Below are positions 3,403-22,837 of a stretch of DNA of 32,000 nucleotides, piece by piece. The translations under genes were made by a program, and so were the position numbers. Position 1 is the first letter of the stretch, and every line of letters starts with the position of its first letter. Source of the stretch: Candidatus Methanofrustulum fimipullorum (GTDB taxonomy: Archaea > Halobacteriota > Methanosarcinia > Methanosarcinales > Methanosarcinaceae); contig JAAYST010000021.1 in assembly GCA_012518265.1 (NCBI GenBank), positions 1-32,000 on the forward strand. Direction: 5' to 3'. The notes below the pieces were generated by a model. That model was not told the DNA's origin. It ran no database searches and saw only the letters and a program-made list of their open reading frames with translations.

Positions 3403-3888
3403 TTAAGCCCACGGATCTTCATCTGCCGGCTTTCTGACACCTGCAACTATTGCAGAGTAATCCCAAATGTACCAAACATCTCCTTTTTGTCGAACGGCAA
3501 TTTTACGAGGACTGTCGGCTCCTGCATTTTTTACAAAAATGTTTGCAATTCCGGGTTGTTCGTACATTTTGTTTCTTTCCAAATCAACTACATAAGGTTC
3601 GTTCGGCGTATAGTTGTTTTCCGGTTTTGCACCGAGGAAATATGAACGAATTAAATATGATTTGTCCGAAAATCGATCTCTTAAAAAAGATATTTGATGA
3701 TTGCTTACAGGCTGCTTAGGATTGTGAATTATATTAAGCATGTTGATTCCTCTTTCTTTGTCTTCAATAAAGTTTTGAAGAGCAATGAAAAGAAGAGCTG
3801 CGGCCGTTTCCGGTTTTTTATTCATTTGTTCTGCCATTTTACGAAACGTTTCTTCGTCTCTTGCAAACGGGCCGAGTGTTACTTTCAT
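3403..3888 (-). CDS. Hypothetical protein (161 aa, soluble, no motif I can name)
   Basis: Clean ORF starting at ATG, with non-low-complexity composition and AT-rich intergenic DNA on both sides. All overlapping plus-strand ORFs look like shadows. Confidence 0.7.
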   Translation of the reverse strand: MKVTLGPFARDEETFRKMAEQMNKKPETAAALLFIALQNFIEDKERGINMLNIIHNPKQPVSNHQISFLRDRFSDKSYLIRSYFLGAKPENNYTPNEPYVVDLERNKMYEQPGIANIFVKNAGADSPRKIAVRQKGDVWYIWDYSAIVAGVRKPADEDPWA

Positions 3889-4168: not shown

Positions 4169-6937
4169 TTATTCATTTGCCATTCTTTTAACCAGTTCGA
4201 TACCGGCTTCTTTTGCATCGTTTATTTTAGATACGTCGGGTCCGCCGCCGAGTGCCAAATCGGGCTTTCCGCCCCCTCCGCCTCCTACGATTTTGGACAT
4301 TTCCCGTACCAAATCGCCGGCTTTAATTCCTCTTTCAATTGCCAATTTTCCGCATGATGCGACTATTTTTACGCCGTTGTCTTCTCCTAAGAGAATTGAA
4401 ACGGAATTTTCATATTTCAAACATTCGACTGCCATTTTTCTCAGTTCGTCCGCAGAGTATTTACCGACATCGGTTATAATTTTTATGCCGTTTACTACTT
4501 CGCCGCTTTCTATCATTTGATCGATTTTTAATTCCGCCAAAATGTCTTTAAGATGACTGTTTTCCTTGTTGAGTTCTTTCCATTCTCTAAAAAAGCGGTC
4601 AACTGTTTCAGGAAGCTTTTCTTTTGTAACACTTAAAATATCGGAAGATTCCGCCAACAAACGTTCCGTGTGCTGAACTGCACGAATTGCAGCATCACCC
4701 GCTGCATATTCAAATCTGACAACACCGTCTTGAATTCTCTCGCAGCCGAGGATTTTTATCATTCCGACATCGCCTGTGTAGCTACAGTGAGTGCCCCCGC
4801 AAGCTTCAATATCGGTTCCCACTTTAACGATTCTCAAATCGGAATCTTTCGGAACTCCGCCTTGGTAGAGTTCAAAACCGTAAGTTTGCTCAGCCGTTGT
4901 TCTATCAAGCACTTCAAAACCCAACTTTTTGTTAGACATTACGATTTTGTTTGCAATAAGTTCGATTTCATTGAGTTCTTCTTGAGTTACGTGTTTAAAA
5001 TGAGATACGTCAAGGCGTGCTCTTTCTTCAGTTTTTTGAGCACCTGCTTGCCAAATATGGTTTCCTAAAACGCGTTTTGCGGCGTCGTTTATTATGTGAG
5101 TTGCAGTATGATGTCTCGTTAACGCATCTCTTCTTGCTTTATTTACGACTCCGGAAACCAAATCGCCTTTATTTATAGGAACACCGTATTTTTCGGAATC
5201 TACTTCGTGTACGATTACTCCGTTGTGAATTTGAACGTCAGAGACGTTATAAGTATAATTTCCTATTGTCAAGGTTCCGTGATCTGCTTCTTGTCCTCCG
5301 CTTTCCGGATAGAAAAATGTGGAATCCAAAACAACCAAATTGTCAAATACATCGAGTACGACCGCTTCAAAATCCATTCTTTCAGGCTCTGCATAATACA
5401 TTTTTTTAGTTGCGGGCAGATGGAGAATTTTATCTTCATATTTGAAACCTTCCGTTTCTTTTTCTTCGGCCTCGCTGTGCATTTCGGCAACAAGAGAATA
5501 GAAATTGTCGGGAAGATCGACAGCAACACCCGCTTTTTCCGCAATGTCTTTTGTAATTTCCGGAGTAATTCCGTGACTGTCATAAAGTTCCAACAATTCT
5601 TCTTGGGGAATCGGGCCTTTGCCTGCGTATTTTTTAGCGGACCTTTCAACAATGCGTGCGCCTTTTTCCATCGTTTTTCCGTACTTATCTTCTTCCGATG
5701 CCAATATCTCTTCAATCGTATGGAAATTTTCGGCAAATTCGGGATATTCGGGCATATTTTTAATATGAAGCGCAACCAATTCGGATAAAGGAACGTTTAC
5801 ATTCAAATCGTTTAAAAGACGAAGCGTTCTTCTTAAAACGAGTCGGGCCAAGTATCCTGCTTTTACGTTTGAAGGAATAATTCCGTCACCAAGCATAAAC
5901 GTAAGACAACGTGTGTGATCGGCAATTGCATAAATCTTTTCCATCGGCTCCATTATTTTTGTAAGCTCATCTACGTCTTTTCCTATGCTTTCTGCAACTT
6001 GTTTTCTTAGTGCGTAAATATTCGCAGATCCGCTTACATCCATTAAACCTGAAAACTTTGCATTTTGTGCAAAAATTTCACGATATTCCGGGTCTGAAAT
6101 ATGGTGGTCGATTCCTGCAATATTTGTAAGTTCTTCAATTATTGACGGAAAAATCGCATCGTATATCGTGGGAGTACCTTGGGACGCCCAAACGAATCTT
6201 TCAAGACCGTAGCCTGTGTCGACTATATACGTTTCCATTTTATCGTAGAGTTTTCCGTTTACGTTAACGGAGCCTGTTTTAGTCTCTTTTAAATTCATGA
6301 AAACGAGTGTTGCAAGTTCGAGTCCGCCGACCATAACTTCAACGGAAGCGCCGGCATTTCCGCCACCGGCCCAAGGGTTTTGAATATAAGTTACATCCTT
6401 CTCATCAACACCGAGACTTTTTAAAAGCTCGTCACACAAACGAACAGTTTCGTCTTTCCAATAGTATTCCCGTTTGGAATTATTAAACACATGGTGTGCC
6501 ATCATTTCAAAAGTCGTCAAATGGCGACCGGTTCGTCCGACGGAATCCAAATCGTTTAAACGAATACAAGGCTGCGAAATCGTAAGAGGATTTGCAGGAG
6601 GTGCTACTCTTCCGGATGTCACATAAGGCTGAAAATCAGCAATGGACGCAATTGTCAAATATATATCGTCGCGCCATCTTGCTGCAACCGGATATCTATG
6701 TACCGGGGTGTGGCCTCTTTGTTCAAAGAAATCCAAATAGTAAGAACGCATTTCCGGAACTGTGAATTCCCGGTCGAATTTGGGACTTCCGATAAATGTG
6801 TAAGGATCACACGGCGCATCGCCGCACGTAGTTCTGTCGGGGTCTTTCGTCAGAAATATATTTCCGCACTCCGAGCATGTTTTTTTAATATAGCCGTTTT
6901 CATCAAAATAAGATATATTATATTCATCTTCAAGCAT
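4169..6937 (-). CDS. alaS: Alanine--tRNA ligase (archaeal type)
   Basis: About 920 aa. Archaeal-style N-terminus with Cys pairs (CSECGN...CGDAPC), editing-domain motifs HHTATHIIN and CGGTHC, and a C-terminal GGGGGGKPD (DHHA1-like) block. I prefer ATG 6937, which has GGTG 6 nt upstream, over the track's GTG at 6946. Confidence 0.95.
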   Translation of the reverse strand: MLEDEYNISYFDENGYIKKTCSECGNIFLTKDPDRTTCGDAPCDPYTFIGSPKFDREFTVPEMRSYYLDFFEQRGHTPVHRYPVAARWRDDIYLTIASIADFQPYVTSGRVAPPANPLTISQPCIRLNDLDSVGRTGRHLTTFEMMAHHVFNNSKREYYWKDETVRLCDELLKSLGVDEKDVTYIQNPWAGGGNAGASVEVMVGGLELATLVFMNLKETKTGSVNVNGKLYDKMETYIVDTGYGLERFVWASQGTPTIYDAIFPSIIEELTNIAGIDHHISDPEYREIFAQNAKFSGLMDVSGSANIYALRKQVAESIGKDVDELTKIMEPMEKIYAIADHTRCLTFMLGDGIIPSNVKAGYLARLVLRRTLRLLNDLNVNVPLSELVALHIKNMPEYPEFAENFHTIEEILASEEDKYGKTMEKGARIVERSAKKYAGKGPIPQEELLELYDSHGITPEITKDIAEKAGVAVDLPDNFYSLVAEMHSEAEEKETEGFKYEDKILHLPATKKMYYAEPERMDFEAVVLDVFDNLVVLDSTFFYPESGGQEADHGTLTIGNYTYNVSDVQIHNGVIVHEVDSEKYGVPINKGDLVSGVVNKARRDALTRHHTATHIINDAAKRVLGNHIWQAGAQKTEERARLDVSHFKHVTQEELNEIELIANKIVMSNKKLGFEVLDRTTAEQTYGFELYQGGVPKDSDLRIVKVGTDIEACGGTHCSYTGDVGMIKILGCERIQDGVVRFEYAAGDAAIRAVQHTERLLAESSDILSVTKEKLPETVDRFFREWKELNKENSHLKDILAELKIDQMIESGEVVNGIKIITDVGKYSADELRKMAVECLKYENSVSILLGEDNGVKIVASCGKLAIERGIKAGDLVREMSKIVGGGGGGKPDLALGGGPDVSKINDAKEAGIELVKRMANE

Positions 6938-6964
6938 TACAAACACCGTAATTTTATTTTGTAT

Positions 6965-7240
6965 TTATTTTCTGTAAAAAGAAACAGTTCTGCCTCTGAT
7001 ATCTACAATAACGGAATCGGTCCGCTCAGCCAACAACGCAGCCGCTTCTTTAATGTCGTCCGATTCTTCCGCATTTTTCAAAATGCGCACCTTAACAAGT
7101 TTTTTCTCTTTAATTTGTTTTTTAAGCTCTTCAATTAAACTTTCTGTAATACCGCTTTTCCCGACATTTATAATCGGATCCAAATCGGCGGATAATTTTT
7201 TAAGTTCTATAAGCTTTTTCTTATCAGTTAACTCGGTCAT
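6965..7240 (-). CDS. YhbY/CRS1 (CRM domain) RNA-binding protein
   Basis: 91 aa with the pattern LDPIINVGKSGITESLIEELKKQIKEKKLVKVRIL...VIVDIRGRTVSFYR, typical of the YhbY family. It lies immediately upstream of alaS on the same strand. Confidence 0.85.
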   Translation of the reverse strand: MTELTDKKKLIELKKLSADLDPIINVGKSGITESLIEELKKQIKEKKLVKVRILKNAEESDDIKEAAALLAERTDSVIVDIRGRTVSFYRK

Positions 7241-7270
7241 AAATATTAACCCTTTTATATGCTGAATGAA

Positions 7271-7326
7271 AGTAATAAAGTAATAAAGTAATAAAGTAAT
7301 AAAGTAATTTAAAGTAATAAAGTAAA
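7271..7326. repeat. Octanucleotide microsatellite (AGTAATAA)n, 4 perfect plus 2-3 imperfect copies
   Basis: Read directly in the divergent yhbY / cdhC intergenic region. Confidence 0.85.
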
Positions 7327-7550
7327 AATAAAAATTATATTAAATTATATTGTATTTATATTGTATTATATTATCAGTATTTATTTGATTATATTTGTAT
7401 ATTAGATTTATATTATATGGGTTCCTTAAATAACGTACTTCAGTTTTCCGGTTTTTTAAAAATATTTTCTCATAAATTGTATACTATATGCAATACAGTT
7501 TTAAAAATGTTCGGATTGAAAAACTGAAAAATTATAAATCATTCGGAAAG

Positions 7551-7594
7551 TCAAAATATAAATTAAGAATTAAGAAACTCAAAATATAAATTAA
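7551..7594 (+). promoter_or_regulatory. Perfect 16-nt direct repeat TCAAAATATAAATTAA x2 (TATA-box-like core), candidate cdhC promoter
   Basis: Copies at 7551-7566 and 7579-7594. The AAATATAAAT core resembles an archaeal TATA box. The second copy is centred about 40 nt upstream of ATG 7627, which would fit a transcript with a short leader. Confidence 0.35.
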
Positions 7595-7626
7595 TATGAT
7601 TGTAATTTAAGCTTACGGTGATTCAT

Positions 7627-9009
7627 ATGGATTGTGATACTTCTTCAGAATATTGCGGGGAATATATACGCAACAGTGATATATTCATACGATTTGGGGA
7701 GCCGTATCCTGCATTTCAATGTGTATCGTGCAAAGGAGATTTTTTGGAATTTGATTTTTCAAATAATCGAATAAAGATTCGAGTAACCGGACCTGAAATT
7801 ACCGATTTTGTAAAATCTGAAAACGAACAATTTATTAAAGCCGGAATAGGAATTCGTATTTATTTAAAAATTCCAGGATTTTCCGATGATGTTTTGCAAA
7901 ATATCGAAAGTATTATAGAGAAAAAAATCGGGGATTTAATTTCGGAAATAAAAGGAGTATCGCATGAAAATTTGCGAGACGAAATAGTAATAAAGATTAG
8001 AAAGGCGGAAGTTGAAAACGGACTTTCTTTTGAAAAAATCGGATATTGCTTAAGTAAACTGATTTTAAGAGATTACCAATACGTCGATTTCGTATACACG
8101 GAAATAATAACCGACCAAATTTCAGTAAATAAAGAATTGGAAATTGTAAAGCGGATATATGAAAAAAGAGATAAAGCCGCAAAAATGCTTCGTGATGAAA
8201 ACGTTTCAAAATTTTATTTGTGTAAAATGTGCCAAAACGCAACGCCGGAACATGTATGTATTATTACGCCGGATCGGCCGTCCGTTTGCGGAACGATTCA
8301 TTGGCAGGAAGCACAGGCGTTTGAAACTGTTGACCCTTTCGGTTCGATTTCAGGGTTTGAAAAAGGAGAAATTCTAAATGAAAAATCGGGGGAATATAGC
8401 GGAATCAATGAAACTATGAAAACAGAAACGAAAGGCAAAATTAAAAAGCTTTCCCTTTATTCGCTTTATGAAAATCCGCACACGACAGGTGCTTCGGTAA
8501 ATATTATTGCATTTGCAATACCGGAATTAAACGGATTCGGAATAATTGACAGACAAACTGATTTTCCGACAGTAAACGGACTTACGTTTGAAAATTTAAA
8601 AGCTTCAGTTTCAGGCGGAATACAAATTCCGGGATTTATGGGAATCGGTGAGCCTTATTTGTATTCCCCGAACTTCTTTAAAAAAGAAGGAGGATGGAGA
8701 AACGTCGTTTGGATTTCATCAAAACTTAAAGAAAAAGTAATCGATAAAACGGAAAATCGGGAAATTGCGGAAATCATAAAAACAATCCCTACAGAAAACG
8801 ATGTTGCAGATATATATGAATTAAAAAAATATTACAAATTTGATGAAAGGGAAATTAAAGAAATCTATACGGAAAAACCGGAAAATATGAAAAAAATGAA
8901 AATAGAATTTTTAAGTATTCCGATTATCGAAAATTATGAAAATGAAAGCAAAAAACAAAATATTAGAAAAATAAAAATTCCGAATGTGAAAATTACAATA
9001 AAAAAATGA
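7627..9009 (+). CDS. cdhC: Acetyl-CoA decarbonylase/synthase beta-subunit (CdhC/ACS) homolog lacking the Cys-Gly-Cys Ni site
   Basis: Colinear with my memory of archaeal CdhC: FYLCKMCQNATPEHVCIITPDRPSVCGTIHW, GEYSGINE, YSPNFFKKEGGWRNVVWISSKLKEK, and a C-terminal KITIKK tail. GGTGAT SD at 7617-7622 precedes ATG 7627; the track ORF starts at GTG 7618. Confidence 0.85.
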   Translation: MDCDTSSEYCGEYIRNSDIFIRFGEPYPAFQCVSCKGDFLEFDFSNNRIKIRVTGPEITDFVKSENEQFIKAGIGIRIYLKIPGFSDDVLQNIESIIEKKIGDLISEIKGVSHENLRDEIVIKIRKAEVENGLSFEKIGYCLSKLILRDYQYVDFVYTEIITDQISVNKELEIVKRIYEKRDKAAKMLRDENVSKFYLCKMCQNATPEHVCIITPDRPSVCGTIHWQEAQAFETVDPFGSISGFEKGEILNEKSGEYSGINETMKTETKGKIKKLSLYSLYENPHTTGASVNIIAFAIPELNGFGIIDRQTDFPTVNGLTFENLKASVSGGIQIPGFMGIGEPYLYSPNFFKKEGGWRNVVWISSKLKEKVIDKTENREIAEIIKTIPTENDVADIYELKKYYKFDEREIKEIYTEKPENMKKMKIEFLSIPIIENYENESKKQNIRKIKIPNVKITIKK

Positions 9010-9158
9010 TAAAAAATAAAAAAATGATAAAAAATAAAAAAATGAGAAAAAAGAGAAAAAAAGAAAAATGAAAAAAGATGAAATGAAAATGAAAAAAAGA
9101 GATGAATTAAAAAAAATGAATGAAAAATCCATAAAGAAACGAAAAAGAGGAGCGGTAT

Positions 9159-10424
9159 ATGAAAAAACAGATTACGCTTGAATATATCGAGAAGTTGTTA
9201 TCGGAGTCGGGGTCGGAAATTACTGACGAAATTATATTTGGGGATGTCGTTTTTGATAAAAACGATATATCAAGTGACAAATATCCTAAAGCGGTTGAAT
9301 TTTTAGGAAAAGAAACGTATGAAGCCGCTCGAAAATTCGCTGAAATTGCAATTTCTTTAGGCTATGTTCCGGATTCCGATTTAATAGATTTTATTTACCC
9401 CGACAAACGTAAAAAAACATGCGGCGTTTTGAAAGTTAACGAACTTATACCGCAAGTATATAAAAGACAGGAAATAAAATATCAAAACAAAATCCAAGAA
9501 GTCGTATTGGGGGCTACGAAAGCGGATGGCGGGACAAGAAAAAATAAAATTGTGCTTGGCGGAGAAAAAAATGTTTCATATTTCCCGGGCGATGTTTCGT
9601 TTAACGGAAATTATGTATCTCTTGACGTTTTTGATATGCCGATAAGTCTTGCAAGAGCCGTTCGTGAAAGATACGAGGACGTTTTGGAAGATCCGGCGGA
9701 GTGGGCAAAAAAGGCCGTAAAAGAGTATAATGCAGATATGGTTACGCTTCATTTGATTTCAACAGATCCTTCAATAAAAGATACGTCTGCAAGAGAGGCT
9801 TCAAAAACGGTTGAAAACGTTTTGCAGGCGGTAGATGTTCCGATTATAATTGGCGGGTCTGGAAATCCAGAAAAAGACCCTGAAGTTTTGGAAAAAGCGG
9901 CGGAAGCGGCGGAAGGAGAAAGGGTTCTTTTGGCGTCTGCGAATTTGAATATGGATTTTCAAAGAATCGGAAAAGCGGCTGTCAAATACGGTCACGCCGT
10001 TCTTTCTTGGACTCAAATGGATATAAATTCACAAAAGGAATTGAACAGAAAACTGATACGTTTGTGCAATTTAAATCCTGATTCTTTAGTAATGGATCCG
10101 ACAACGGCCGCTCTTGGATACGGTCTTGACTATGCGTATTCGAATATGGAGAGAATCAGACTTTCCGGACTATCAGGCGACCTCGAACTTGCATTTCCGC
10201 TTTCTTCCGGAACCACAAACGCATGGGGCGCACGCGAAGCCTGGATGAAAGAATCCCCAAACCCACAAGATTCCGATTGGGGAATGAGAGAATACAGAGG
10301 ACCGTTATGGGAAGCGGTAACGGGATTAACACTTGCTCAAGCAGGAAACGACTTATTCATGATGATGCATCCGACTGCTGTGGCACTTTTAAAATCGATT
10401 ACGAAAGCATTAGGAGGAAAATGA
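9159..10424 (+). CDS. cdhD: Acetyl-CoA decarbonylase/synthase delta subunit (corrinoid Fe-S protein small subunit)
   Basis: Long blocks match my memory of CdhD: [94 protein letters not shown] lies 6 nt upstream. Confidence 0.9.
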
Positions 10425-10425
10425 A

Positions 10426-11961
10426 ATGAAAGCGACAAGTCCTCTCGATATTTATCCGTATCTGCCTGAAAATTCCGAAGAACTTTTCGACCATACGCGA
10501 ATGTCTCTTGCGCTTCAGCTTATTAATCGTACAATTTCGTTAAAAAGCATAAAAGATAAACTCGTAGAAATTGATCCAACCGAAAAATCGTATAAAGCAC
10601 TTGAAAAATTGTTAGCACCCGCAATCATAGAAGTTTTAATAGGGGTAGGAGAAAACCAAGTAACAATAGGCGGAGACGACGTATTGTTCAGACACAACAA
10701 AACGTTTTATAATAAAACGCCGATTGCAATTTCGATTTCCGATTTGATGTCGAAAGAAGATATGGAAAAAAAAGTTGAAGAAATCGTATCTTTTGAAAAG
10801 TTTTACATCGGAAAAACGATGAAAATAGAAATGATTTCCATATTTTGTGAATCAAACGACCCGGATACATTTGAAAAAGCAACAAAAATAGTAAACGAAA
10901 CCCTTGAAAAAAGCAAAAGAGATCTGCCTCTTGTTTTGTATTCTTACAATCCAAAAGCAATAAGAAAAGCCTTGGAAATTGTAGGCTGCAAAAAACCGCT
11001 AATTTACGGTGCAAATACAGAAAATTGGAGAGAAATGGCAGCTCTCGCACTTGAATTTGAAGTCCCTGTTACAGTTTGCGGAAACGGAGATCTTGATTTG
11101 TTGCAATCGCTTGCTGTTACTTTTGAGTTTAACGGGATTTCCGATATAGTACTTGACCCCGGATTTGAAAATACAAAAGAAGGATTTAAAAATACATTTC
11201 AAAATTACGTATCACTTAGAATTTCAGGAATTAACGGCGATACAAATATAAATTATCCGACCGTATTTTTCGGAAAAATAAATAATTCAAAACAAACAAA
11301 TAAAACAGAACAAATAAAGCAAACAAATCAAACAGAACAAAAAAACAATTTAAAACAAACAAACGATTCTGAAAAATTATTTTCGGAAATTCCTGAATTT
11401 TTGTTACCTGACGAAAACGATATTAAGAATTCTATGTTTGAAACGGTACTCTCGTCTGTCATGACTGTTCGTTATGCCGATTTATTGATTTTGAATTACT
11501 CTTATCCTCATGAGATATTGCCGCTTATTCATTTAGCCGACACTATGTATACGGACCCGAGAGTTCCGGCTTCAGTTACTCCCGGTTTGTACGAAGTAGG
11601 AAATCCTGATGACGAGTCACCCGTTTTATTTACTACGAATTTCGCACTCACATTTCACACAGTAGAAAGCGACCTTTCTTCACAAAACATCGATTGTTAC
11701 TTAATTGCGGTAAACACAGGCGGACTCGGAGTTGAAGCGGCCGCCGCCGGCGGACAACTTACGGCTGAAACTGTTAAAAAAGAATTTGAAAATGCAAACT
11801 TCGACATTTCAAAAACAAAATACAAAACAATAATTATCCCGGGGCTTGCCGCAAGAATCCAAGGAGAACTTGAAATATTGTTAAATGTAAAAGTTTTGGT
11901 CGGACCTACAGATTCAGGAAAGCTTCCGCTGTGGCTTGAAACAAATTTTAACAAAAAATGA
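10426..11961 (+). CDS. cdhE: Acetyl-CoA decarbonylase/synthase gamma-subunit (CdhE) homolog lacking the N-terminal Fe-S cysteines, with a low-complexity insertion
   Basis: SPLDIYPYLP start, VTIGGDDVLFRH, TDPRVPASV, SPVLFTTNFALTFHTVESDL, GVEAAAAGGQLTAE and IIPGLAARIQGE all resemble CdhE/AcsC. The ATG lies 1 nt after the cdhD TGA, and AGGAGG sits inside the cdhD 3' end. Confidence 0.85.
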   Translation: MKATSPLDIYPYLPENSEELFDHTRMSLALQLINRTISLKSIKDKLVEIDPTEKSYKALEKLLAPAIIEVLIGVGENQVTIGGDDVLFRHNKTFYNKTPIAISISDLMSKEDMEKKVEEIVSFEKFYIGKTMKIEMISIFCESNDPDTFEKATKIVNETLEKSKRDLPLVLYSYNPKAIRKALEIVGCKKPLIYGANTENWREMAALALEFEVPVTVCGNGDLDLLQSLAVTFEFNGISDIVLDPGFENTKEGFKNTFQNYVSLRISGINGDTNINYPTVFFGKINNSKQTNKTEQIKQTNQTEQKNNLKQTNDSEKLFSEIPEFLLPDENDIKNSMFETVLSSVMTVRYADLLILNYSYPHEILPLIHLADTMYTDPRVPASVTPGLYEVGNPDDESPVLFTTNFALTFHTVESDLSSQNIDCYLIAVNTGGLGVEAAAAGGQLTAETVKKEFENANFDISKTKYKTIIIPGLAARIQGELEILLNVKVLVGPTDSGKLPLWLETNFNKK

Positions 11962-12127: not shown

Positions 12128-12964
12128 TTGACTCTAGTGTTTAGTTCAACTATAATGGTAAGTACTGCTGAACAAAACACAGACGAGACAGAAGGACGCT
12201 GTTTGTCAGAATTAAAATTAGATTTTGATATTATGAGCGTTAATGCAGAAAATATGTCAATATGGGAAAGAGCAAAAATTGCAGAGACTTTAAGACTTGC
12301 GATTGAAAAAGAAACGAGAAAAGATATTGAAAACAGTCATAGAATGACAGAAGAATCTTATGAAATAGCACCATGTGCCTCACAACCTGTATATCTGGGT
12401 GCAAATACTTCATTTAATGCGGCGGATTATAGAAATAGTGGAACAAGTAAGTGGGGAATCTCTAAAAAAGTAGTGAACTCTTCAGCAGCCACATATAATA
12501 ATACGGTCCAAACATTTGCTTTTACATACCCAGGTGTTGGTGGCTGTAGTGCATGGGCATATGTAGGTCAAAAATTTCATATAATTGGCCAGGGATCTCA
12601 AACAGCAAACATTAGAATGGTTGGATCATACAATGGTACTACTGAAGCTCTGGGGGGTGGAACAGGTAACACTAAAATAACCTTAGTTGTAAAAGACCTA
12701 ACTACAGGAACAGCATATACAGAAGAGATATATGATGAGACAGTAAGTGCTTTAGGTGTTAAGCAAGTAAAAAGAACATTTAATTCCGGAAAAAGTGTTA
12801 TGTTACAAGCGGGGCATGAATATGTAGCGTATATACTGTTAGAAGGTTCAGGAGCAGCTGTTACACTAGGAGAAGGTGGATCTGATTTTGGACCATGGGA
12901 TTATGGACCTTATGACCCGCCGAACGAAGGAGCAAGATATTCAAGAATTTATATAGATTTTTGA
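12128..12964 (+). CDS. Secreted protein of unknown function; the 5' end is ambiguous (likely true start ATG 12085, out of frame across an A8 tract)
   Basis: 278-aa ORF from an artefactual-looking TTG start. The frame stays open back to 12089 and encodes KKIPSKLIPILVILTLVFSSTIMVSTAEQ, a signal peptide missing its Met. GGAG plus ATG sit at 12074-12087, one nucleotide out of frame. Confidence 0.7.
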   Translation: MTLVFSSTIMVSTAEQNTDETEGRCLSELKLDFDIMSVNAENMSIWERAKIAETLRLAIEKETRKDIENSHRMTEESYEIAPCASQPVYLGANTSFNAADYRNSGTSKWGISKKVVNSSAATYNNTVQTFAFTYPGVGGCSAWAYVGQKFHIIGQGSQTANIRMVGSYNGTTEALGGGTGNTKITLVVKDLTTGTAYTEEIYDETVSALGVKQVKRTFNSGKSVMLQAGHEYVAYILLEGSGAAVTLGEGGSDFGPWDYGPYDPPNEGARYSRIYIDF

Positions 12965-13104: not shown

Positions 13105-13800
13105 ATGAAACCATTTCAAAAAAAATATAATTATTTATATCCGCCTATAATATTTGTCATTCTATCATTGTTTGCACAAATATTCGGGTATTTTAATCCG
13201 GAATTTTTGAATTCTTACATTAACTTATTTATACAAGGAACTCTTGTGTGGTTTTTAGCTCCTTTTACATTTTTGACTGTTATTTATAAATTAGACAAGT
13301 TTGAAAGCATAAAACTAAAGAAAGTTAAAAAAGACATTTTAACAGTTTTAAAATTTACATTAATTATAGTTGTTTTAACTGTTTTGATTTTTATAATTAT
13401 AAAATATATTTCAAAAGATAATTACAGTCCGGGATATTTGGAACAAATCGCATACAGCGACCCGTTGAATTTCGTACTCGGATTAATTGCTCTTTTTTGG
13501 GTTTTGGCGGGTGCGGTTGCCGTTAAATTGACCGTATTCATTTTAACATATAAAGATACAAAATATTCAGATTTGAATAAAAACAGATATTGGATTTCGT
13601 GGGGAATTTCGGCCGCCGTATTTGCGCTTCTTAATTTGCAATACTTTAATTATAATTTGATTAATTGTATTTTGTTAATCGGAATTCCTACAATAATTTA
13701 CGGCTTTTTGTGGAAAGTTGAAAATAAACCTGAATTATTGTGGGCGGTAAATCTTTTACACGATTTCATACTCGTATTTTTAATAAAATTTTTAGTCTAA
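13105..13800 (+). CDS. Hypothetical polytopic membrane protein (about 6 predicted TM helices)
   Basis: 231-aa ORF from ATG with alternating long hydrophobic stretches and K/D-rich loops. I recognise no family motif. Confidence 0.7.
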   Translation: MKPFQKKYNYLYPPIIFVILSLFAQIFGYFNPEFLNSYINLFIQGTLVWFLAPFTFLTVIYKLDKFESIKLKKVKKDILTVLKFTLIIVVLTVLIFIIIKYISKDNYSPGYLEQIAYSDPLNFVLGLIALFWVLAGAVAVKLTVFILTYKDTKYSDLNKNRYWISWGISAAVFALLNLQYFNYNLINCILLIGIPTIIYGFLWKVENKPELLWAVNLLHDFILVFLIKFLV

Positions 13801-13989: not shown

Positions 13990-14853
13990 TTAGAGAAGTT
14001 TCGGAACGGGAAGTCCGTTTTCTTCACGGATTCTAATTGTATCCAAGCTTTTCTCTTTTTTGCCGTTTGACAATTTTTCAAGTAACGGAATACCGCCTTT
14101 TCCTTCCAGGTCGGCCGGTTGGGTTTCAAGTTTTCCGTCGGCAATCATTTTGTCAATGAATTCTTTTCCTCTTTTGGTTCTTATAATAACTGTGCTCCAG
14201 CCGTCAGGAGATCCTACTGAACCGGTTGAGAAATCTGCCAATTCCGATGTGTAATCGGTACAAACGTGGCATGATTTTTGCTCAAATATGTGCGTTTCTT
14301 TGAGCGGAACGGTAATCGGTTCGCTTCCGTCTTTTTTATAGACCCAAAGTTTTCCTTTTCCTATATCTGTTTTTAAAACGTCGTCCATTGAAACGTTTGC
14401 GTATTCTTCAATCAAAATTTTCATTGACTGATAGTTGAAGTTTTCCATGCAGAAAATTCCGATAATAAGACCGACTTTATCGCCTACGTGACGGAATCCC
14501 AACGGGTATTTAATTGCTTTTCTAAGCGCAACCAATTGGCATGGTGTTCCGACAAATCCGACTTTTTCAAGACCGTGTTCTCTTACCGCACTTTTTAATA
14601 ATGCAACGTTCGGGCTTATGGAATATTTAGTTCCTCTTGCTTTTAAAATATCTTCTTTTGTTATTGCAACAACAGGAGAAGGGTTGTGTTTATCGGGCGC
14701 GGACGCAACAATACTTCCGTCCAAAATTCCGTTTTCAATTCCGTAAATAAAAGCGGCAGATACAATTCCTCCGTCCTGAGATCTGCTTCTTACATCTGCA
14801 TCTGTTGCTCTTGCTGTTATGATTTCCATATAATTACCAAGCGATTTTGACAT
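13990..14853 (-). CDS. frhB: F420-reducing hydrogenase beta subunit
   Basis: LGNYMEIITARATD...QDGGIVSA N-terminus, GTPCQ motif and a C-terminal CHVCTDYT cluster are typical of FrhB. I prefer ATG 14853, which has GAGGGTGG just upstream. The track start ATG 14868 overlaps the frhG stop (ATGA). Confidence 0.9.
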   Translation of the reverse strand: MSKSLGNYMEIITARATDADVRSRSQDGGIVSAAFIYGIENGILDGSIVASAPDKHNPSPVVAITKEDILKARGTKYSISPNVALLKSAVREHGLEKVGFVGTPCQLVALRKAIKYPLGFRHVGDKVGLIIGIFCMENFNYQSMKILIEEYANVSMDDVLKTDIGKGKLWVYKKDGSEPITVPLKETHIFEQKSCHVCTDYTSELADFSTGSVGSPDGWSTVIIRTKRGKEFIDKMIADGKLETQPADLEGKGGIPLLEKLSNGKKEKSLDTIRIREENGLPVPKLL

Positions 14854-14864
14854 AATTTCCACCC

Positions 14865-15593
14865 TCATTCAATATTGAAAACAGTTGATGAAACCGATAT
14901 TCTTGGACATTGGAATGTGCAAATTCCGCAGTTTATACAAAGATCCATATCGAAATTCGGTTTTCCGTCGTACATTTTAATCGCTCTTGTTTGACATGCG
15001 GCCGCACAAGTTCCGCAGCCCATGCACAAGCTTTGGCTGATTACACGTCTTGCCAAATCAAGTCCGTTTGTATCCATGAACTCTTCCGCAAATACGGCAT
15101 ACGGCAACATATAGTCTGTGTCGCCTTCGAGTGCTGCAAATATGAAATTAAGAATTCCTTCAATTGCAGGAGCACAACCGGGCAAAGCAAAGTCTACTTT
15201 TATAACTTTACCGATCGGCAAGAAAGCCGTGTGTGTCGGTTGCGGGTCTTGTCCACCGCGGCTGAAACTGTTAATTCCGCCTGTTGCGGCACAAGATCCG
15301 AAAGCAACAACGATATTTGATTTTTCACGAACTTCTTTTAAAAGAGCCATTGAATGTTCATCATCGATACATACACTTCCTTCAACAAGAGCAATATCGA
15401 CATTATCGGGATATACTCTTTCGATAGAAATTTTTTCATCCGTTTCAGTAACTACTGTTTTTTCATCAGCAAGTGTTATGCTGTATACTAAATCGATTGC
15501 CTCTAAAATTTCGGGCAATTTTTCATATGAGTCCGCAAGCGAGATTAAACATCCCGTACATGCGCTCAAATGTACATGTGCTACTCTTACCAC
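14865..15593 (-). CDS. frhG: F420-reducing hydrogenase gamma (small) subunit
   Basis: N-terminal VAHVHLSACTGCLISL, plus two C-terminal ferredoxin motifs (CMGCGTCAAAC and CINCGICTFQCP). GTG start with AGGTGAT 3 nt upstream. Confidence 0.9.
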   Translation of the reverse strand: MVRVAHVHLSACTGCLISLADSYEKLPEILEAIDLVYSITLADEKTVVTETDEKISIERVYPDNVDIALVEGSVCIDDEHSMALLKEVREKSNIVVAFGSCAATGGINSFSRGGQDPQPTHTAFLPIGKVIKVDFALPGCAPAIEGILNFIFAALEGDTDYMLPYAVFAEEFMDTNGLDLARRVISQSLCMGCGTCAAACQTRAIKMYDGKPNFDMDLCINCGICTFQCPRISVSSTVFNIE

Positions 15594-15652
15594 ATTATCA
15601 CCTAACCAAATTTTCCAAACTTACTTGTAACAGTACTAAAAATTAAACAGGT

Positions 15653-16147
15653 TTAAAGTTCATCCAATATCATTTCAATTGCAGGATTAATTGACTTTTT
15701 TACAACGTCCGACAACTCGACACAAATATCGGGAGCAGGCATATTTTCAAACTGACAGCCTATTACAACGACTTCAACACCGAAATTGTCATAAACGTCA
15801 CGAAGCATTCCGGCAAGCGGCATATCGTGTGCGTCCATGTGATATTTTGAAATATTCGGCAAGTCTTCAACTGTCAATCTTTTAAGTGTTCCCGGTTTTA
15901 ATCCGTAGTCGATAATATCGGCAATAATAATTTTTTTAACTGCGGAAGTCTCGTCAATAAGAGAAATTATAAAGTAAGATGCGGCAGTTCCTGCATCGAT
16001 TATGTCAATGCCTTCAGACCTGAGTTTCGGTTCGCTTTCTTTAATTTTATTCATTTCAGCCACAACGGCCGGACCGAACCCGTCATCTCCTAACAAAATA
16101 TTTCCGCAACCCAAAATTAATATTTCTTTATCTAAATAATCCGCCAT
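15653..16147 (-). CDS. frhD: F420-reducing hydrogenase delta subunit / hydrogenase maturation endopeptidase
   Basis: MADYLDKEILILGCGNILLGDDGFGPAV start and an internal DAHDM are typical of HycI/FrhD-type proteases. The track ORF is extended to 16234 through low-complexity codons that overlap frhA. Confidence 0.85.
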   Translation of the reverse strand: MADYLDKEILILGCGNILLGDDGFGPAVVAEMNKIKESEPKLRSEGIDIIDAGTAASYFIISLIDETSAVKKIIIADIIDYGLKPGTLKRLTVEDLPNISKYHMDAHDMPLAGMLRDVYDNFGVEVVVIGCQFENMPAPDICVELSDVVKKSINPAIEMILDEL

Positions 16148-16214
16148 AATTTCCCTACAATTTATTAAAATGCCATTTATTAAAATAATGTTTATAAAAA
16201 TGATATTATTAGAT

Positions 16215-20068: not shown

Positions 20069-20818
20069 TTAGCCGAATCTTCCGCTAACGTAATCTAAAG
20101 TTTCTTTATTATCCGGGTTCTTAAAGATTTTTTCTGTCGGTCCGAACTCTAACATTTTCCCTAAGTAGAAAAACGCCGTCATGTCTGAAATTCTTACCGC
20201 TTGTTGCATATTGTGAGTTACAACTACGATAGTATAATCTTTTTTAAGTTCCATTATAAGTTTTTCTATTTGGTTTGTAGAAATCGGATCCAAAGCACTA
20301 CAAGGTTCATCGAACAAAATAATGTCAGGTTTTACGGCCAATGTTCTTGCTATACAAAGTCTTTGTTGCTGACCGCCGCTTAAACTCATTGCATTTGTTT
20401 TTAAACGGTCTTCTACTTCATCCCAAAGAGCACTTGCCCTTAAAGAATCTTCAACAATTCCCGGCAATTGACTTTTAGGAACACCGTGAATTTTTGGACC
20501 ATATGCAATATTGTCATATATAGACATCGGAAACGGGTTTGCCTTTTGAAAAACCATTCCGACCTTTTTCCTCAGTTGAGCAACATTTACAGATTTGTCA
20601 TAAATATCCGTATCATTGATCGTTATGGAACCTTCAACTCTACAGTTTGGAATAGTATCGTTCATTCTGTTAATGCAACGCAAAAATGTGGATTTACCGC
20701 ATCCGGAAGGACCAATTAAAGCAGTTACACTTTTATGAGGAATTAACATTTCAATATCATATAGTGCTTGGTTGGAACCGTACCACAAATTTAAGTTCTT
20801 AACATCTATATTAGTCAT
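20069..20818 (-). CDS. pstB: Phosphate ABC transporter ATP-binding protein
   Basis: Walker [10 protein letters not shown], signature LSGGQQQR, Walker B ILFDEP. Size and N-terminus are PstB-like, and the gene follows pstA. Confidence 0.95.
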
Positions 20819-20946
20819 TAAAAGACAGAGCTCCTTGAATTTAAATCGATTATAGTGATCTATATATTTTTATTTATTTATTTTTATTTTTTAATTTATT
20901 TTTAAACATTTTTATATTAATCGCATTATTTGTAATTATTTACGTA

Positions 20947-21819: not shown

Positions 21820-21840
21820 ATAATCATCTCAAATTTATCA

Positions 21841-22761: not shown

Positions 22762-22837
22762 ACAAAATTATCGTAAAACAAAAATTATTGAATCAACCGA
22801 TTAAATCGGTTGTTCAAATAATCGGTTGTTTAAATAA

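What the first reader, a model, noticed from the sequence alone, without database searches (positions are those of the whole stretch)
7618..11961. Orphan cdhC-cdhD-cdhE cluster with no CODH (cdhA/cdhB) or Ni-insertion gene beside it
Archaeal ACDS is normally encoded as cdhA-cdhB-cdhC-(cooC-like accessory)-cdhD-cdhE. Here cdhC is preceded by a 377-bp divergent intergenic region and by yhbY/alaS on the other strand. Only a 149-bp A-rich spacer separates cdhC from cdhD, and cdhE is followed by unrelated ORFans. The three ORFs are intact (about 460, 421 and 511 aa). Each has an SD, and the cdhE ATG sits 1 nt after the cdhD TGA, which looks like a maintained operon. The catalytic beta subunit and the gamma subunit have both lost metal ligands (see separate findings), while the delta subunit looks very well conserved. 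Two readings are possible. (a) It is a repurposed corrinoid/methyl-transfer module, for example moving methyl groups to or from a pterin without making acetyl-CoA. (b) It is an ACDS remnant decaying in an acetate-dependent methanogen. Either would be informative.
Basis: partly seen in the sequence, partly recalled or inferred. Interest (0 to 1): 0.8.

Follow-up and report, generated by a model that had tools for sequence, protein, structure and literature searches.

The report
Nickel-free acetyl-CoA synthase remnant kept by selection
A methanogen related to insect-gut Methanimicrococcus keeps three of the five genes of the acetyl-CoA synthase machine, but the catalytic subunit has lost exactly its nickel-binding residues and the corrinoid subunit its iron-sulfur ligands, and all three genes are still under purifying selection, so the module is probably reused for some other methyl-transfer job.

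Summary
An intact cdhC-cdhD-cdhE operon lies at 7627-11961, with no cdhA, cdhB or cooC-like gene in the 32-kb window. CdhC keeps the ACS fold and all four [4Fe-4S] cysteines, but Gly-Ala-Ser replaces the Ni-binding Cys-Gly-Cys. CdhE has lost all four cysteines of its N-terminal [4Fe-4S] motif. CdhD is close to canonical.

The host is an uncultured Methanosarcinaceae (protein identical to NLI61967.1). By AlaRS it is sister to Methanimicrococcus plus Methanolapillus. Published genomes of those genera lack cdhAB and keep cdhCDE or cdhDE. The ligand losses are shared across this clade (29/29 CdhC, 28/28 CdhE), and the CdhE clade is monophyletic.

dN/dS is 0.06-0.21 for all three genes, similar to flanking housekeeping genes. 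This argues strongly against decay and supports the "repurposed module" reading in outline.

The module cannot be a classical acetyl-CoA synthase. That contradicts the published roles proposed for the Methanimicrococcus genes (acetyl-CoA anabolism, CO detoxification).

Most likely CdhDE is still an H4MPT:corrinoid methyltransferase supplying anabolic methyl groups, and the Ni-free CdhC is an Fe-S accessory. That function is inferred, not shown.

I could not test whether this genome lacks cdhAB elsewhere.

The parts
7241..7626 (.). Divergent AT-rich intergenic region between yhbY (minus strand) and cdhC (plus strand). Presumed promoter region. Contains tandem repeats AAAGTAAT x6.9 (7269-7325) and ATTAT-type repeats (7334-7418).
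   Evidence: No Rfam match.
7627..9009 (+). cdhC-like gene: ACS beta-subunit homologue without Ni ligands, 460 aa. The ORF extends to a GTG at 7618, but ATG 7627 has the SD GGTGAT upstream and matches the public gene call.
   Evidence: PF03598 + PF19436. Below the NCBIfam cut-offs. 100% identical to NLI61967.1. AF2 pLDDT 86.7; Foldseek best hits are ACS structures with TM 0.65-0.81.
8221..8289 (+). Intact C-x2-C-x8-C-x9-C motif (Cys199, 202, 211, 221 in 460-aa numbering). These align with Moorella Cys506/509/518/528, the [4Fe-4S] ligands of the A-cluster.
   Evidence: Invariant in 29/29 clade members and 39/39 canonical ACS.
8488..8496 (+). GGT GCT TCG = Gly288-Ala289-Ser290, in place of the Cys-Gly-Cys that binds both nickels of the A-cluster. 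There is no cysteine anywhere after residue 221.
8839..9006 (+). C-terminal extension of CdhC (about residues 405-460). It is archaeal-type and aligns with the canonical tail. It is kept here and in L001, and lost in Methanimicrococcus proteins.
   Evidence: alignment. Low or moderate pLDDT in the model. The tethering role proposed for canonical CdhC 401-470 comes from PMC13370988.
9010..9158 (.). 149-bp A-rich repeat spacer. It occupies the position where canonical operons carry the cooC-like Ni-insertion ATPase gene.
   Evidence: Canonical control operon. No CooC homologue found by tblastn.
9159..10424 (+). cdhD: CoFeSP small (delta) subunit, 421 aa. The TIM barrel is close to canonical and the N-terminal archaeal region is retained.
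   Evidence: NF003375 593 bits against cut-off 488; TIGR00381 490 against 252.9. 79% identical to L001 and 59% to Methanohalophilus. dN/dS 0.06-0.10.
10426..11961 (+). cdhE: CoFeSP large (gamma) subunit, 511 aa. Its ATG lies 1 nt after the cdhD stop, with the AGGAGG SD inside the end of cdhD.
   Evidence: NF003195 453.5 bits against cut-off 306..
10468..10551 (+). Degenerate N-terminal Fe-S motif (residues 15-42, ENSEELFDHTRMSLALQLINRTISLKSI). All four cysteines of the canonical CxxCx4Cx16C motif are replaced, and there is no PF04060 hit.
11281..11376 (+). Species-specific low-complexity insertion rich in N, K, Q and T (residues 286-317), encoded by 13/27-bp DNA repeats. It sits in the linker between the TIM barrel and the corrinoid domain.
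11443..11958 (+). C-terminal corrinoid-binding domain of CdhE (residues 340-511), strongly conserved.
   Evidence: Aligned to 4djd_C and 2h9a_A. 57 of 79 canonical-invariant columns are kept at >=90% in the clade.

Best explanation
[quoted passage not shown] It was inherited vertically in a Methanosarcinaceae clade comprising this lineage, Methanimicrococcus and Methanolapillus. In that clade the module has stopped being an acetyl-CoA synthase but is still maintained by selection.

Shown:
- CdhC keeps its fold and its [4Fe-4S] ligands but has no Ni-binding Cys-Gly-Cys.
- The Ni-insertion ATPase gene and the CODH genes are absent from the locus.
- CdhE has lost its own [4Fe-4S] ligands.
- The TIM-barrel and corrinoid domains of CdhD and CdhE stay close to canonical.
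- All three genes evolve under purifying selection.

Inferred:
- CdhD-CdhE still work as a corrinoid protein that exchanges methyl groups with tetrahydromethanopterin (CH3-H4MPT + Co(I) <-> H4MPT + CH3-Co(III)).
- This serves anabolic methyl supply rather than acetyl-CoA metabolism. The most attractive acceptor is the corrinoid-dependent core-MetE methionine synthase.
- The Ni-free CdhC still docks on CdhDE as an Fe-S accessory. It could be a redox partner that keeps cobalt as Co(I) now that CdhE has no cluster of its own, or simply a scaffold.
- CdhC is dispensable in some lineages, since Methanolapillus has lost it.
For: Ligand loss.
- Alignments to solved ACS structures (9c0s_E, 1oao, 3git) show the four Cys kept and TSCGCFE replaced by TTGASVN.
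- All 29 clade members have Gly at the first Cys position. The fully replaced columns among 31 universal ACS columns are the Cys-Gly-Cys tripeptide plus one Ala and one N-terminal Pro.
- No Cys or His is gained across the clade.

Fold. The AF2 model has pLDDT 86.7, and Foldseek TM to ACS structures is 0.65-0.81.

CdhE. It has 0 of 4 Fe-S cysteines. All 28 clade members have 0-2 (27 have 0-1; one has 2), against 3-4 (92 of 93 have 4) in 93 canonical sequences. The corrinoid domain keeps 57/79 and the TIM domain 52/85 canonical-invariant columns.

CdhD. It scores above the equivalog cut-offs and its barrel is nearly invariant compared with canonical.

Selection (NG86 dN/dS).
- Between Methanimicrococcus species: cdhC 0.16-0.20, cdhD 0.07-0.10, cdhE 0.09-0.13, flanking genes 0.04-0.15.
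- Window against L001: 0.21, 0.06 and 0.11, with alaS at 0.09.

Vertical inheritance. The CdhE clade is monophyletic (100% NJ bootstrap), with window + L001 basal. The AlaRS tree gives the same sister relationship (100%).

Operon context. The three-gene order, tight spacing and SDs are conserved in the window, L001, L093 and three Methanimicrococcus genomes. A canonical control contains cdhAB and cooC, which are absent from all clade loci.

Literature.
- cdhAB is absent from the Methanimicrococcus and Methanolapillus genomes, which require acetate (PMC9723798, PMC11362671).
- Archaeal and Dehalococcoides core-MetE take methyl from corrinoids, and CoFeSP has been proposed as the donor (PMC7005905).
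- The A-cluster Fe-S potential is cited as about -540 mV (PMC4169405). That is close to the Co(II)/Co(I) couple of CoFeSP (about -504 mV, from my own knowledge).
Against: - No activity, metal content or expression data exist for any member of the clade.
- The proposed acceptor (MetE) and the proposed redox role of CdhC have no genomic linkage. No metE, ramA-like or ferredoxin gene is consistently adjacent.
- Methanolapillus manages without CdhC, so CdhC cannot be essential to CdhDE.
- These organisms keep Mtr, whose MtrA/MtrH could equally supply methyl-corrinoid.
- dS is saturated for the window-L001 pair and near 1 for the Methanimicrococcus pairs, so dN/dS values are approximate.
- The trees are neighbour-joining, each on a single protein.
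- The rest of this genome was not searched for a canonical cdh operon.
Confidence: 0.6

Rival explanations
1. The module still cleaves or makes acetyl-CoA without CODH. Two versions exist. One is Dehalococcoides-like: acetyl-CoA is split into CH3-corrinoid, CO and CoA to supply methyl groups. The other is the role proposed for M. blatticola: CO plus CH3-H4MPT gives acetyl-CoA, for CO detoxification or anabolism. Either would need an unconventional metal site.
For: - The published interpretation of the orthologous genes takes this view (PMC9723798).
- There is a Dehalococcoides precedent for AcsBCD without CODH (PMC7005905).
- The ACS fold, the [4Fe-4S] ligands and most universal residues are retained.
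- Three relatives (L001, L093, P0003) keep the second Cys of the tripeptide.
Against: - The first Cys is Gly in 29/29 clade members, and this protein has no cysteine after residue 221. Neither the N2S2 distal-Ni site nor the tri-thiolate proximal-Ni site can therefore form.
- No compensating Cys or His is gained.
- The cooC-like maturation gene is absent.
- CdhE lacks the cluster used for reductive reactivation.
- The protein scores below the CdhC equivalog cut-off.
Confidence: 0.07
2. It is a decaying, functionless remnant of ACDS in an acetate-dependent methanogen.
For: - Catalytic ligands are lost in two subunits.
- CdhC evolves about twice as fast as CdhD and CdhE.
- CdhC has been lost outright in Methanolapillus (PMC11362671).
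Against: - ORFs are intact in all of roughly 30 CdhC and 28 CdhE clade sequences, which span about 40% identity.
- dN/dS is 0.06-0.21.
- Loss is surgical, confined to the ligand residues, while the other universal residues are retained.
- Operon structure, SDs and the 1-nt coupling are preserved.
Confidence: 0.03
3. In this particular genome the cluster is a divergent paralogue sitting beside a normal cdhABC-cooC-DE operon elsewhere. The organism would then still have a working ACDS, and this copy would be a specialised side module.
For: - Only 32 kb of the genome was available, and the MAG is not in the genome collection searched.
- Methanosarcina species carry more than one cdh operon (PMC4169405 mentions cdh1 and cdh2).
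- This lineage is basal to the gut clade and keeps more ancestral architecture, namely the CdhC tail and the CdhD N-terminus.
Against: - The cluster is orthologous to the only cdh genes left in the sister genera: the gene and species trees are congruent and the derived substitutions are shared.
- Those genomes lack cdhAB (PMC9723798, PMC11362671).
- No cdhA, cdhB or cooC was found in the fetched stretches (the 32-kb window and about 21 kb of the 105.9-kb contig L088) or in the L001 and L093 contigs.
Confidence: 0.12
4. CdhDE has been recruited into the methyl-substrate network rather than into methionine synthesis. It would act as a soluble corrinoid shuttle between methanol/methylamine methyltransferases (or methyl-CoM) and H4MPT. 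This would be an energy-free 'Mtr bypass' feeding CH3-H4MPT for biosynthesis.
For: - These organisms are (or are related to) obligate H2-dependent methyl reducers that still need CH3-H4MPT and CH2=H4MPT and have lost the rest of the methyl branch (PMC9723798, PMC11362671).
- An enzymatically unidentified Mtr/Mer bypass is known genetically in Methanosarcina (cited in PMC4169405).
- The TIM barrel and corrinoid domains are conserved.
Against: - There is no genomic linkage to mta, mtm or mtb genes at any locus examined.
- Mtr is retained in the sister genera and could do this job.
- The idea is purely inferential.
Confidence: 0.15

Closest known systems
Methanimicrococcus blatticola / M. hongohii / M. 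stummii cdhCDE (cdhAB-less Methanosarcinaceae; Thomas et al. 2021, PMC9723798; Protasov et al. 2024, PMC11362671)
   Same: - Same three-gene order with no cdhAB and no cooC.
- CdhC has Gly in place of the first Ni-binding Cys.
- CdhE has 0-1 of the 4 Fe-S cysteines and the same 1-residue deletion.
- All genes are under purifying selection.
- The clade is monophyletic with the window in the CdhE tree.
   Different: - Protein identities are only 41-44% (CdhC), 46% (CdhE) and about 62% (CdhD).
- The genomic context differs: queC | cdhCDE | NMD3 there, against alaS-yhbY | cdhCDE ... frh here.
- The window protein keeps the archaeal C-terminal tail of CdhC and the longer CdhD N-terminus.
- The host is a separate, basal lineage with no genome in the species set searched.
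- The papers treat the proteins as functional CdhCDE and do not mention ligand loss.
Methanolapillus cdhDE (PMC11362671)
   Same: CdhE lacks the Fe-S cysteines, CdhD is conserved, and the two genes are translationally coupled.
   Different: CdhC is absent altogether. This shows that CdhDE has a CdhC-independent function.
Canonical archaeal ACDS (Methanosarcina thermophila CODH/ACS, PDB 9c0s/9c0t; M. acetivorans supercomplex, PMC13370988; Methanohalophilus operon L094)
   Same: The beta, gamma and delta subunits are homologous with the same folds and domain order. The CdhD N-terminal region and the CdhC C-terminal tail proposed to tether the complex are retained here.
   Different: The canonical system has cdhA, cdhB and a cooC-like ATPase, Cys-Gly-Cys in CdhC, and a four-Cys PF04060 domain in CdhE. 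All of these are missing here.
Dehalococcoides mccartyi incomplete Wood-Ljungdahl pathway (AcsB-AcsCD without CODH) feeding core-MetE (PMC7005905)
   Same: ACS plus CoFeSP are kept without CODH in an acetate-dependent organism. A corrinoid protein is proposed as the methyl donor for a core-MetE methionine synthase.
   Different: There AcsB is taken to be catalytically active, cleaving acetyl-CoA and releasing CO. Here the Ni site is gone, so the methyl group must come from elsewhere (H4MPT or methyl substrates).
HgcA (mercury-methylating corrinoid protein derived from the CoFeSP corrinoid domain)
   Same: Another example of the CdhE/AcsC corrinoid domain being reused outside acetyl-CoA synthesis. 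There is weak homology over residues 380-510.
   Different: The score is far below cut-off (60-73 bits against 275-285). There is no transmembrane domain and no HgcB-like partner. The full TIM barrel and the CdhD partner are retained. It is not a member.

Membership tests
Acetyl-CoA synthase / ACDS beta subunit (CdhC/AcsB, A-cluster enzyme) | ACS core fold (domains A2 + A3; Pfam PF03598 + PF19436) | tested here: met
   Pfam E-values 1.7e-18 and 5e-60. AF2 pLDDT 86.7; Foldseek TM 0.65-0.81 to 9c0s_E, 3git and 1ru3.
Acetyl-CoA synthase / ACDS beta subunit (CdhC/AcsB, A-cluster enzyme) | Four cysteines ligating the [4Fe-4S] part of the A-cluster (Moorella Cys506/509/518/528) | tested here: met
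   Cys199/202/211/221 align with them.
Acetyl-CoA synthase / ACDS beta subunit (CdhC/AcsB, A-cluster enzyme) | Cys-Gly-Cys tripeptide binding proximal and distal Ni (Moorella Cys595-Gly596-Cys597) | tested here: not met
   Gly288-Ala289-Ser290 instead, with no Cys after residue 221. Present in 39/39 canonical ACS and 0/29 clade members.
Acetyl-CoA synthase / ACDS beta subunit (CdhC/AcsB, A-cluster enzyme) | Score at or above the curated equivalog cut-off (TIGR00316 355.95; NF003379 372) | tested here: not met
   313.2 and 355.5 bits.
Acetyl-CoA synthase / ACDS beta subunit (CdhC/AcsB, A-cluster enzyme) | Operon association with CODH (cdhA, cdhB) and a CooC/AcsF-type Ni-insertion ATPase | tested here: not met
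   Absent from the 32-kb window and from all clade loci. Present in the Methanohalophilus control. The whole genome was not searched.
Acetyl-CoA synthase / ACDS beta subunit (CdhC/AcsB, A-cluster enzyme) | Acetyl-CoA synthesis/cleavage or CO/acetyl-CoA exchange activity; Ni content | not testable with these tools
   Needs purified protein.
Corrinoid iron-sulfur protein large subunit (CdhE/AcsC) | TIM-barrel middle domain plus C-terminal corrinoid-binding domain; equivalog score | tested here: met
   NF003195 453.5 bits against cut-off 306. Two-domain alignment to 4djd_C and 2h9a_A. 57/79 invariant columns kept in the corrinoid domain.
Corrinoid iron-sulfur protein large subunit (CdhE/AcsC) | N-terminal [4Fe-4S] domain with four Cys (PF04060) | tested here: not met
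   0 of 4 Cys and no PF04060 hit.
Corrinoid iron-sulfur protein large subunit (CdhE/AcsC) | Bound corrinoid cofactor and methyl-Co(III)/Co(I) cycling | not testable with these tools
   Inferred from domain conservation only.
Corrinoid iron-sulfur protein small subunit (CdhD/AcsD) | Equivalog score, TIM barrel, and pairing with cdhE | tested here: met
   TIGR00381 490 bits against 252.9; NF003375 593 against 488. Barrel nearly invariant compared with canonical. 1-nt gap to cdhE.
Orphan cdh(C)DE of cdhAB-less Methanosarcinaceae (Methanimicrococcus/Methanolapillus type) | Shared derived states: CdhC first Ni-Cys changed to Gly; CdhE Fe-S cysteines lost with a 1-residue deletion; no cooC between cdhC and cdhD | tested here: met
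Orphan cdh(C)DE of cdhAB-less Methanosarcinaceae (Methanimicrococcus/Methanolapillus type) | Phylogenetic membership (CdhE clade; host sister to the two genera) | tested here: met
   NJ bootstrap 100% for the CdhE clade and for the AlaRS sister relationship. These are single-gene NJ trees only.
Orphan cdh(C)DE of cdhAB-less Methanosarcinaceae (Methanimicrococcus/Methanolapillus type) | Complete absence of cdhA/cdhB from the genome | not testable with these tools
   Only the window and a 21-kb stretch of a 105.9-kb contig were readable. The MAG is not in the genome collection. Absence is published only for the sister genera.
HgcA | Equivalog score, cap-helix Cys, and C-terminal transmembrane domain with an HgcB partner | tested here: not met
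   60.1 bits against cut-off 275, and the match covers the corrinoid domain only.

The most novel reading that the evidence does not exclude
The clade has turned the ACDS methyl-transfer half into a stand-alone anabolic methyltransferase system. CdhDE would be the physiological methyl-corrinoid donor that archaeal core-MetE methionine synthase has long been presumed to need, or alternatively a soluble, energy-free bypass of Mtr between methyl substrates and H4MPT. The Ni-free CdhC would have become a dedicated [4Fe-4S] reductive activator or cap for the cobalt centre, replacing the cluster that CdhE lost. That would make it the first natural acetyl-CoA synthase homologue with a non-nickel function.
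Probability: 0.15. Interest if true: 0.8.

Novelty: new variant of a known kind. Interest (0 to 1): 0.6.

Why it matters
Genome papers on Methanimicrococcus currently treat CdhCDE as a working acetyl-CoA synthase fragment serving anabolism or CO detoxification. The sequence evidence here says it cannot be one, yet selection keeps it.

That gives a natural experiment on what the corrinoid half of the oldest carbon-fixation enzyme can do on its own. It also provides a naturally Ni-free ACS scaffold for biochemists.

It offers a concrete candidate for two open questions in methanogen physiology. One is which corrinoid protein feeds the archaeal methionine synthase. The other is how methyl-reducing methanogens obtain CH3-H4MPT cheaply.

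It also shows that the loss of ACDS function predates the gut-restricted genera, because a basal lineage shares it. From memory, the NLI accession belongs to anaerobic-digester MAGs, but I did not verify this.

For annotation, CdhC and CdhE calls should be checked for ligand motifs. About a third of the ACS-like cluster representatives I scanned lacked Cys-Gly-Cys by a crude regex scan that includes fragments and variant motifs.

Tried and rejected
Searches that found nothing.
- A genome-collection scan with CdhC peptides found no relative, so the source genome is not among the species representatives.
- Rfam found no match in the window.
- Literature searches for any description of A-cluster ligand loss in this clade returned nothing relevant.

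Scans that were uninformative.
- The bacterial-type promoter/terminator scan of the operon gave counts equal to shuffled expectation. It is also the wrong model for an archaeon.

Ideas considered and dropped.
- An adjacent DUF362 + 2x[4Fe-4S] protein might replace CdhC in Methanolapillus. It sits upstream of cdhDE only in M. ohkumae, not in M. millepedarum or strain Ag5. An orthologue also follows cdhE in canonical Methanohalophilus. It is therefore an old operon neighbour, not a replacement.
- New clade-wide Cys or His residues might rebuild a metal site. None was found. Methanimicrococcus alone has a Cys at a universally conserved Gly, but the window does not.
- HgcA membership was rejected on score and architecture.

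Method limits.
- YN00 dN/dS failed on saturated pairs, so NG86 values are reported and treated as approximate.
- I ran no further search on CdhA. A hit could not have been tied to this genome.

Full report
WHAT IS THERE

The window is low-GC (about 35%) and comes from a methanogen. It carries the following genes:
- frhADGB (13990-17447, minus strand)
- archaeal alaS (4169-6946, minus) and yhbY (6965-7240, minus)
- feoB
- pstSCAB
- the archaeal mevalonate-pathway genes

On the plus strand lie three tightly packed genes:
- a CdhC homologue (ORF from GTG 7618, probable start ATG 7627, to 9009)
- cdhD (9159-10424)
- cdhE (10426-11961)

- The divergent gap is 377 bp, or 386 bp from the ATG at 7627.
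- A 149-bp A-rich spacer made of degenerate 9/18-bp repeats separates cdhC and cdhD.
- One nucleotide separates the cdhD TGA from the cdhE ATG.
- SD-like GGTGAT, GAGGAG and AGGAGG precede the three starts.

A canonical control operon from Methanohalophilus halophilus reads cdhA-cdhB-cdhC-cooC-like ATPase-cdhD-cdhE. tblastn with its CdhA, CdhB and CooC finds nothing in the window or in any related locus I fetched. The two downstream ORFs (12128-12964 and 13105-13800) have no family match. They are not conserved in the syntenic relative.

THE LIGAND LOSSES ARE REAL AND VERY SPECIFIC

CdhC. I aligned it to solved acetyl-CoA synthases (M. thermophila 9c0s_E; Moorella 1oao and 3git).
- The protein keeps the C-x2-C-x8-C-x9-C motif that holds the [4Fe-4S] cube of the A-cluster.
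- The Cys-Gly-Cys tripeptide that binds both nickels (TSCGCFE) reads TTGASVN.
- The protein has no cysteine at all after residue 221.
- It falls below both NCBIfam CdhC cut-offs, whereas CdhD and CdhE are well above theirs.
- The fold is intact. The AlphaFold model has mean pLDDT 86.7, and its best structural matches are ACS structures with TM 0.65-0.81.

CdhE. Aligned to bacterial CoFeSP structures (4djd_C, 2h9a_A), it has lost all four cysteines of the N-terminal CxxCx4Cx16C motif. The TIM-barrel and corrinoid domains align well.

WHO IT BELONGS TO

The CdhC protein is 100% identical to NLI61967.1. That entry is annotated only as a hypothetical protein of a 'Methanosarcinaceae archaeon' MAG. 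The same locus occurs on a 105.9-kb ENA contig and on a JGI metagenome contig.

AlaRS is 66-67% identical to Methanolapillus and Methanimicrococcus and at most 63% to other Methanosarcinaceae. A neighbour-joining AlaRS tree puts the window plus a Logan contig (L001) as sister to those two genera, with 100% of 30 bootstraps.

L001 is syntenic with the window: DUF6935-alaS-yhbY | cdhCDE ... frhBGDA. A third, more distant contig (L093) also has alaS-yhbY next to cdhCDE.

No genome of this lineage is in the species-representative collection.

THE SAME DEGENERATE MODULE IS SHARED BY THE WHOLE CLADE

The closest CdhC homologues are from Methanimicrococcus, at 41-44% identity. All of them lack Cys-Gly-Cys.

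I compared 29 clade sequences with 39 diverse ACS sequences that carry Cys-Gly-Cys.
- 31 columns are at least 90% conserved in real ACS.
- 22 of these are kept at 90% or more in the clade, including the four Cys, His209, Arg309 and Trp362.
- The fully replaced columns are the three of the tripeptide, one Ala and one N-terminal Pro.
- The first Cys is Gly in 29 of 29.
- Three relatives (L001 GAC, L093 GDC, P0003 GGC) still have the second Cys. The window and Methanimicrococcus do not.
- No new Cys or His is gained clade-wide.

For CdhE, 28 clade sequences have 0-2 N-terminal cysteines (27 have 0-1) and no PF04060 domain. This includes Methanolapillus, which has no cdhC. The 93 canonical Methanosarcinales and Methanoperedens sequences have 3-4 (92 have four). 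The clade shares a one-residue deletion and a 'CE.LF' motif there. It is monophyletic in a CdhE tree (100% of 50 bootstraps), with window + L001 branching first. Gene tree and host tree agree, so the module was inherited vertically from an ancestor in which the ligands were already going.

IT IS NOT DECAYING

NG86 dN/dS values are as follows.

Between Methanimicrococcus species (dS 0.6-1.1):
- cdhC 0.16-0.20
- cdhD 0.07-0.10
- cdhE 0.09-0.13
- flanking queC, NMD3, TFIIE-alpha and HD genes 0.04-0.15

Window against L001 (dS saturated, so these are rough):
- cdhC 0.21
- cdhD 0.06
- cdhE 0.11
- alaS 0.09 and frhA 0.06 for comparison

Within CdhE, conservation of canonical-invariant columns is highest in the corrinoid domain (57/79) and TIM barrel (52/85). 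It is lowest in the former Fe-S domain (10/26). The CdhD barrel is almost invariant even against canonical Methanohalophilus.

CdhC is the fastest-evolving of the three and has been lost in Methanolapillus. It is therefore the most dispensable part, but it is clearly constrained where present.

WHAT IS ALREADY KNOWN

- Thomas et al. 2021 (PMC9723798) reported that M. blatticola lost cdhAB and kept CdhCDE. They drew the proteins as anabolic and noted a possible role in CO detoxification.
- Protasov et al. 2024 (PMC11362671) reported that all intestinal-clade strains lack CdhA and CdhB, that Methanolapillus also lacks CdhC, and that all require acetate. They called the subunit difference 'intriguing'.
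- Neither text mentions the loss of metal ligands. Full-text searches for such a description found nothing.

The orphan gene content is therefore known in sister genera. Three things appear to be new: the occurrence in a separate basal lineage, the clade-wide and surgically specific ligand loss, and the evidence of purifying selection.

HOW IT MOST LIKELY WORKS

Shown by sequence. The protein cannot build the Ni-Ni site, because both the N2S2 distal site and the thiolate-bridged proximal site need the two cysteines. This rests on established A-cluster structures (1oao, 1mjg, 1ru3). The Ni-insertion ATPase gene is absent from the locus. The published acetyl-CoA-forming and CO-scavenging roles, and a Dehalococcoides-style acetyl-CoA cleavage, are therefore very unlikely.

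Inferred. In canonical archaeal ACDS the gamma-delta pair itself catalyses methyl exchange between CH3-H4(M/S)PT and the corrinoid cobalt (established biochemistry of the Methanosarcina complex). The relevant domains are the best-conserved parts here. I therefore take CdhDE to be a working H4MPT:corrinoid methyltransferase.

These organisms, or at least their sister genera, keep Mtr, Mer and H4MPT only for biosynthesis (PMC9723798). Archaeal core-MetE uses methyl-corrinoid rather than methyl-pterin in vitro, with an unidentified corrinoid protein as the presumed physiological donor. CoFeSP has been proposed for that role in Dehalococcoides (PMC7005905). Feeding methionine synthesis is thus the most economical guess. 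A soluble shuttle between methyl-substrate methyltransferases and H4MPT (an 'Mtr bypass') is the main alternative.

For the Ni-free CdhC there are three relevant observations:
- It keeps the universal ACS residues.
- In this lineage it keeps the C-terminal tail that a recent preprint proposes tethers CdhC to the CdhD scaffold (PMC13370988).
- Its [4Fe-4S] ligands are kept in the very clade whose CdhE lost its own cluster.

Together these suggest it still docks on CdhDE. It could act as an electron-transfer partner for Co(II) to Co(I) reactivation. The A-cluster cube potential is cited as about -540 mV in PMC4169405, and the CoFeSP Co(II)/Co(I) couple is about -504 mV from my own knowledge. Alternatively it could be a structural cap. 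This last step is the weakest, because Methanolapillus does without it.

WHAT REMAINS OPEN

- I could not search the rest of this genome for a canonical cdh operon. I give that rival about 12%.
- There are no expression or activity data.
- The trees are single-gene neighbour-joining trees.
- dS is high.

VERDICT

The repurposing reading is supported in outline. This is a new variant of a known kind: a Ni-free ACS-like protein plus an Fe-S-less CoFeSP, in a gene arrangement already noted in sister genera. It is of moderate to high interest because it overturns the published functional assignment and gives a testable handle on stand-alone CoFeSP function.

Noticed in passing
Protein representatives P0164, P0168, P0182, P0205, P0206, P0210, P0243, P0262 and about 40 others: Among the 150 best ACS-like cluster representatives, about 50 keep the four-Cys [4Fe-4S] motif but have no Cys-Gly-Cys at the expected place. 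This comes from a crude regex scan that includes fragments and variant motifs such as C-R-C. Examples are a 364-aa Geoglobus sp. protein (WP_457590526.1) and a 443-aa marine (Tara) protein annotated as ACDS beta. Many bacterial-type ones read 'TSCG..EC'. Ni-ligand-less ACS homologues may be widespread and are annotated as ordinary ACS.
   Followed up: partly
L094:10497-11606 (Methanohalophilus halophilus) and L087:5452-6582 (Methanolapillus ohkumae): A DUF362 + 2x[4Fe-4S] ferredoxin-domain protein (369-376 aa, 50% identical between the two) sits directly after cdhE in the canonical operon. It sits directly before cdhD in M. ohkumae. It is not next to cdhDE in M. millepedarum or strain Ag5. This is an ACDS-associated Fe-S protein of unknown function.
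   Followed up: partly
window 7269-7325 and 7334-7418: The divergent yhbY/cdhC intergenic region holds a clean tandem array AAAGTAAT x6.9 (92% matches). Next to it lies an ATTAT / TTATATTGTAT-type repeat tract. There is no Rfam match.
   Followed up: no
window 8997-9128: The cdhC-cdhD spacer is almost pure purine and is built of degenerate AAAAAAATG / 18-bp repeats. A 37-codon ORF is called there in the public contig (L088 11424-11537). It lies exactly where canonical operons carry the cooC-like gene.
   Followed up: partly
window 11281-11376 (CdhE residues 286-317): A low-complexity N/K/Q/T-rich insertion (NNSKQTNKTEQIKQTNQTEQKNNLKQTNDSEK) is encoded by 13/27-bp repeats in the linker before the corrinoid domain. 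It is absent from the 68%-identical L001 orthologue. L093 and P0069 CdhE (550-558 aa) are also lengthened.
   Followed up: partly
window 10395-10424 (CdhD C-terminus); alignment A5: CdhD of the window and of L001 ends right after the barrel. It lacks the acidic 'D.W(L/I)TEVY' C-terminal tail that is present in canonical Methanohalophilus, Methanimicrococcus, Methanolapillus and L093.
   Followed up: no
Methanimicrococcus CdhC proteins (e.g. P0004, P0009, P0012), column equivalent to window CdhC Gly318: 15 of 29 clade members (the Methanimicrococcus group) have Cys ('VNCLTF') at a Gly that is 97% conserved in real ACS. The window has Gly there. It could be a lineage-specific new thiol near the former active site.
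   Followed up: no
window 20069-23803 (minus strand): A complete pstSCAB-type phosphate ABC transporter is present. M. blatticola is reported to have lost pstABC as part of its gut adaptation (PMC9723798). This lineage therefore looks less reduced than the gut genera.
   Followed up: no
window 12128-12964 and 13105-13800: Two ORFs lie between cdhE and frhB with no Pfam or NCBIfam match. The first (278 aa) looks soluble or secreted. The second (231 aa) is very hydrophobic and looks like a multi-pass membrane protein. They are present in same-species contigs (L088, L089). In L001 they are replaced by unrelated genes.
   Followed up: partly
window 3403-3888 (minus strand): A DUF6935 protein (161 aa) downstream of alaS is 78% identical in L001. 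It was not seen next to alaS in any of the 80 other Methanosarcinales alaS loci by tblastn.
   Followed up: no
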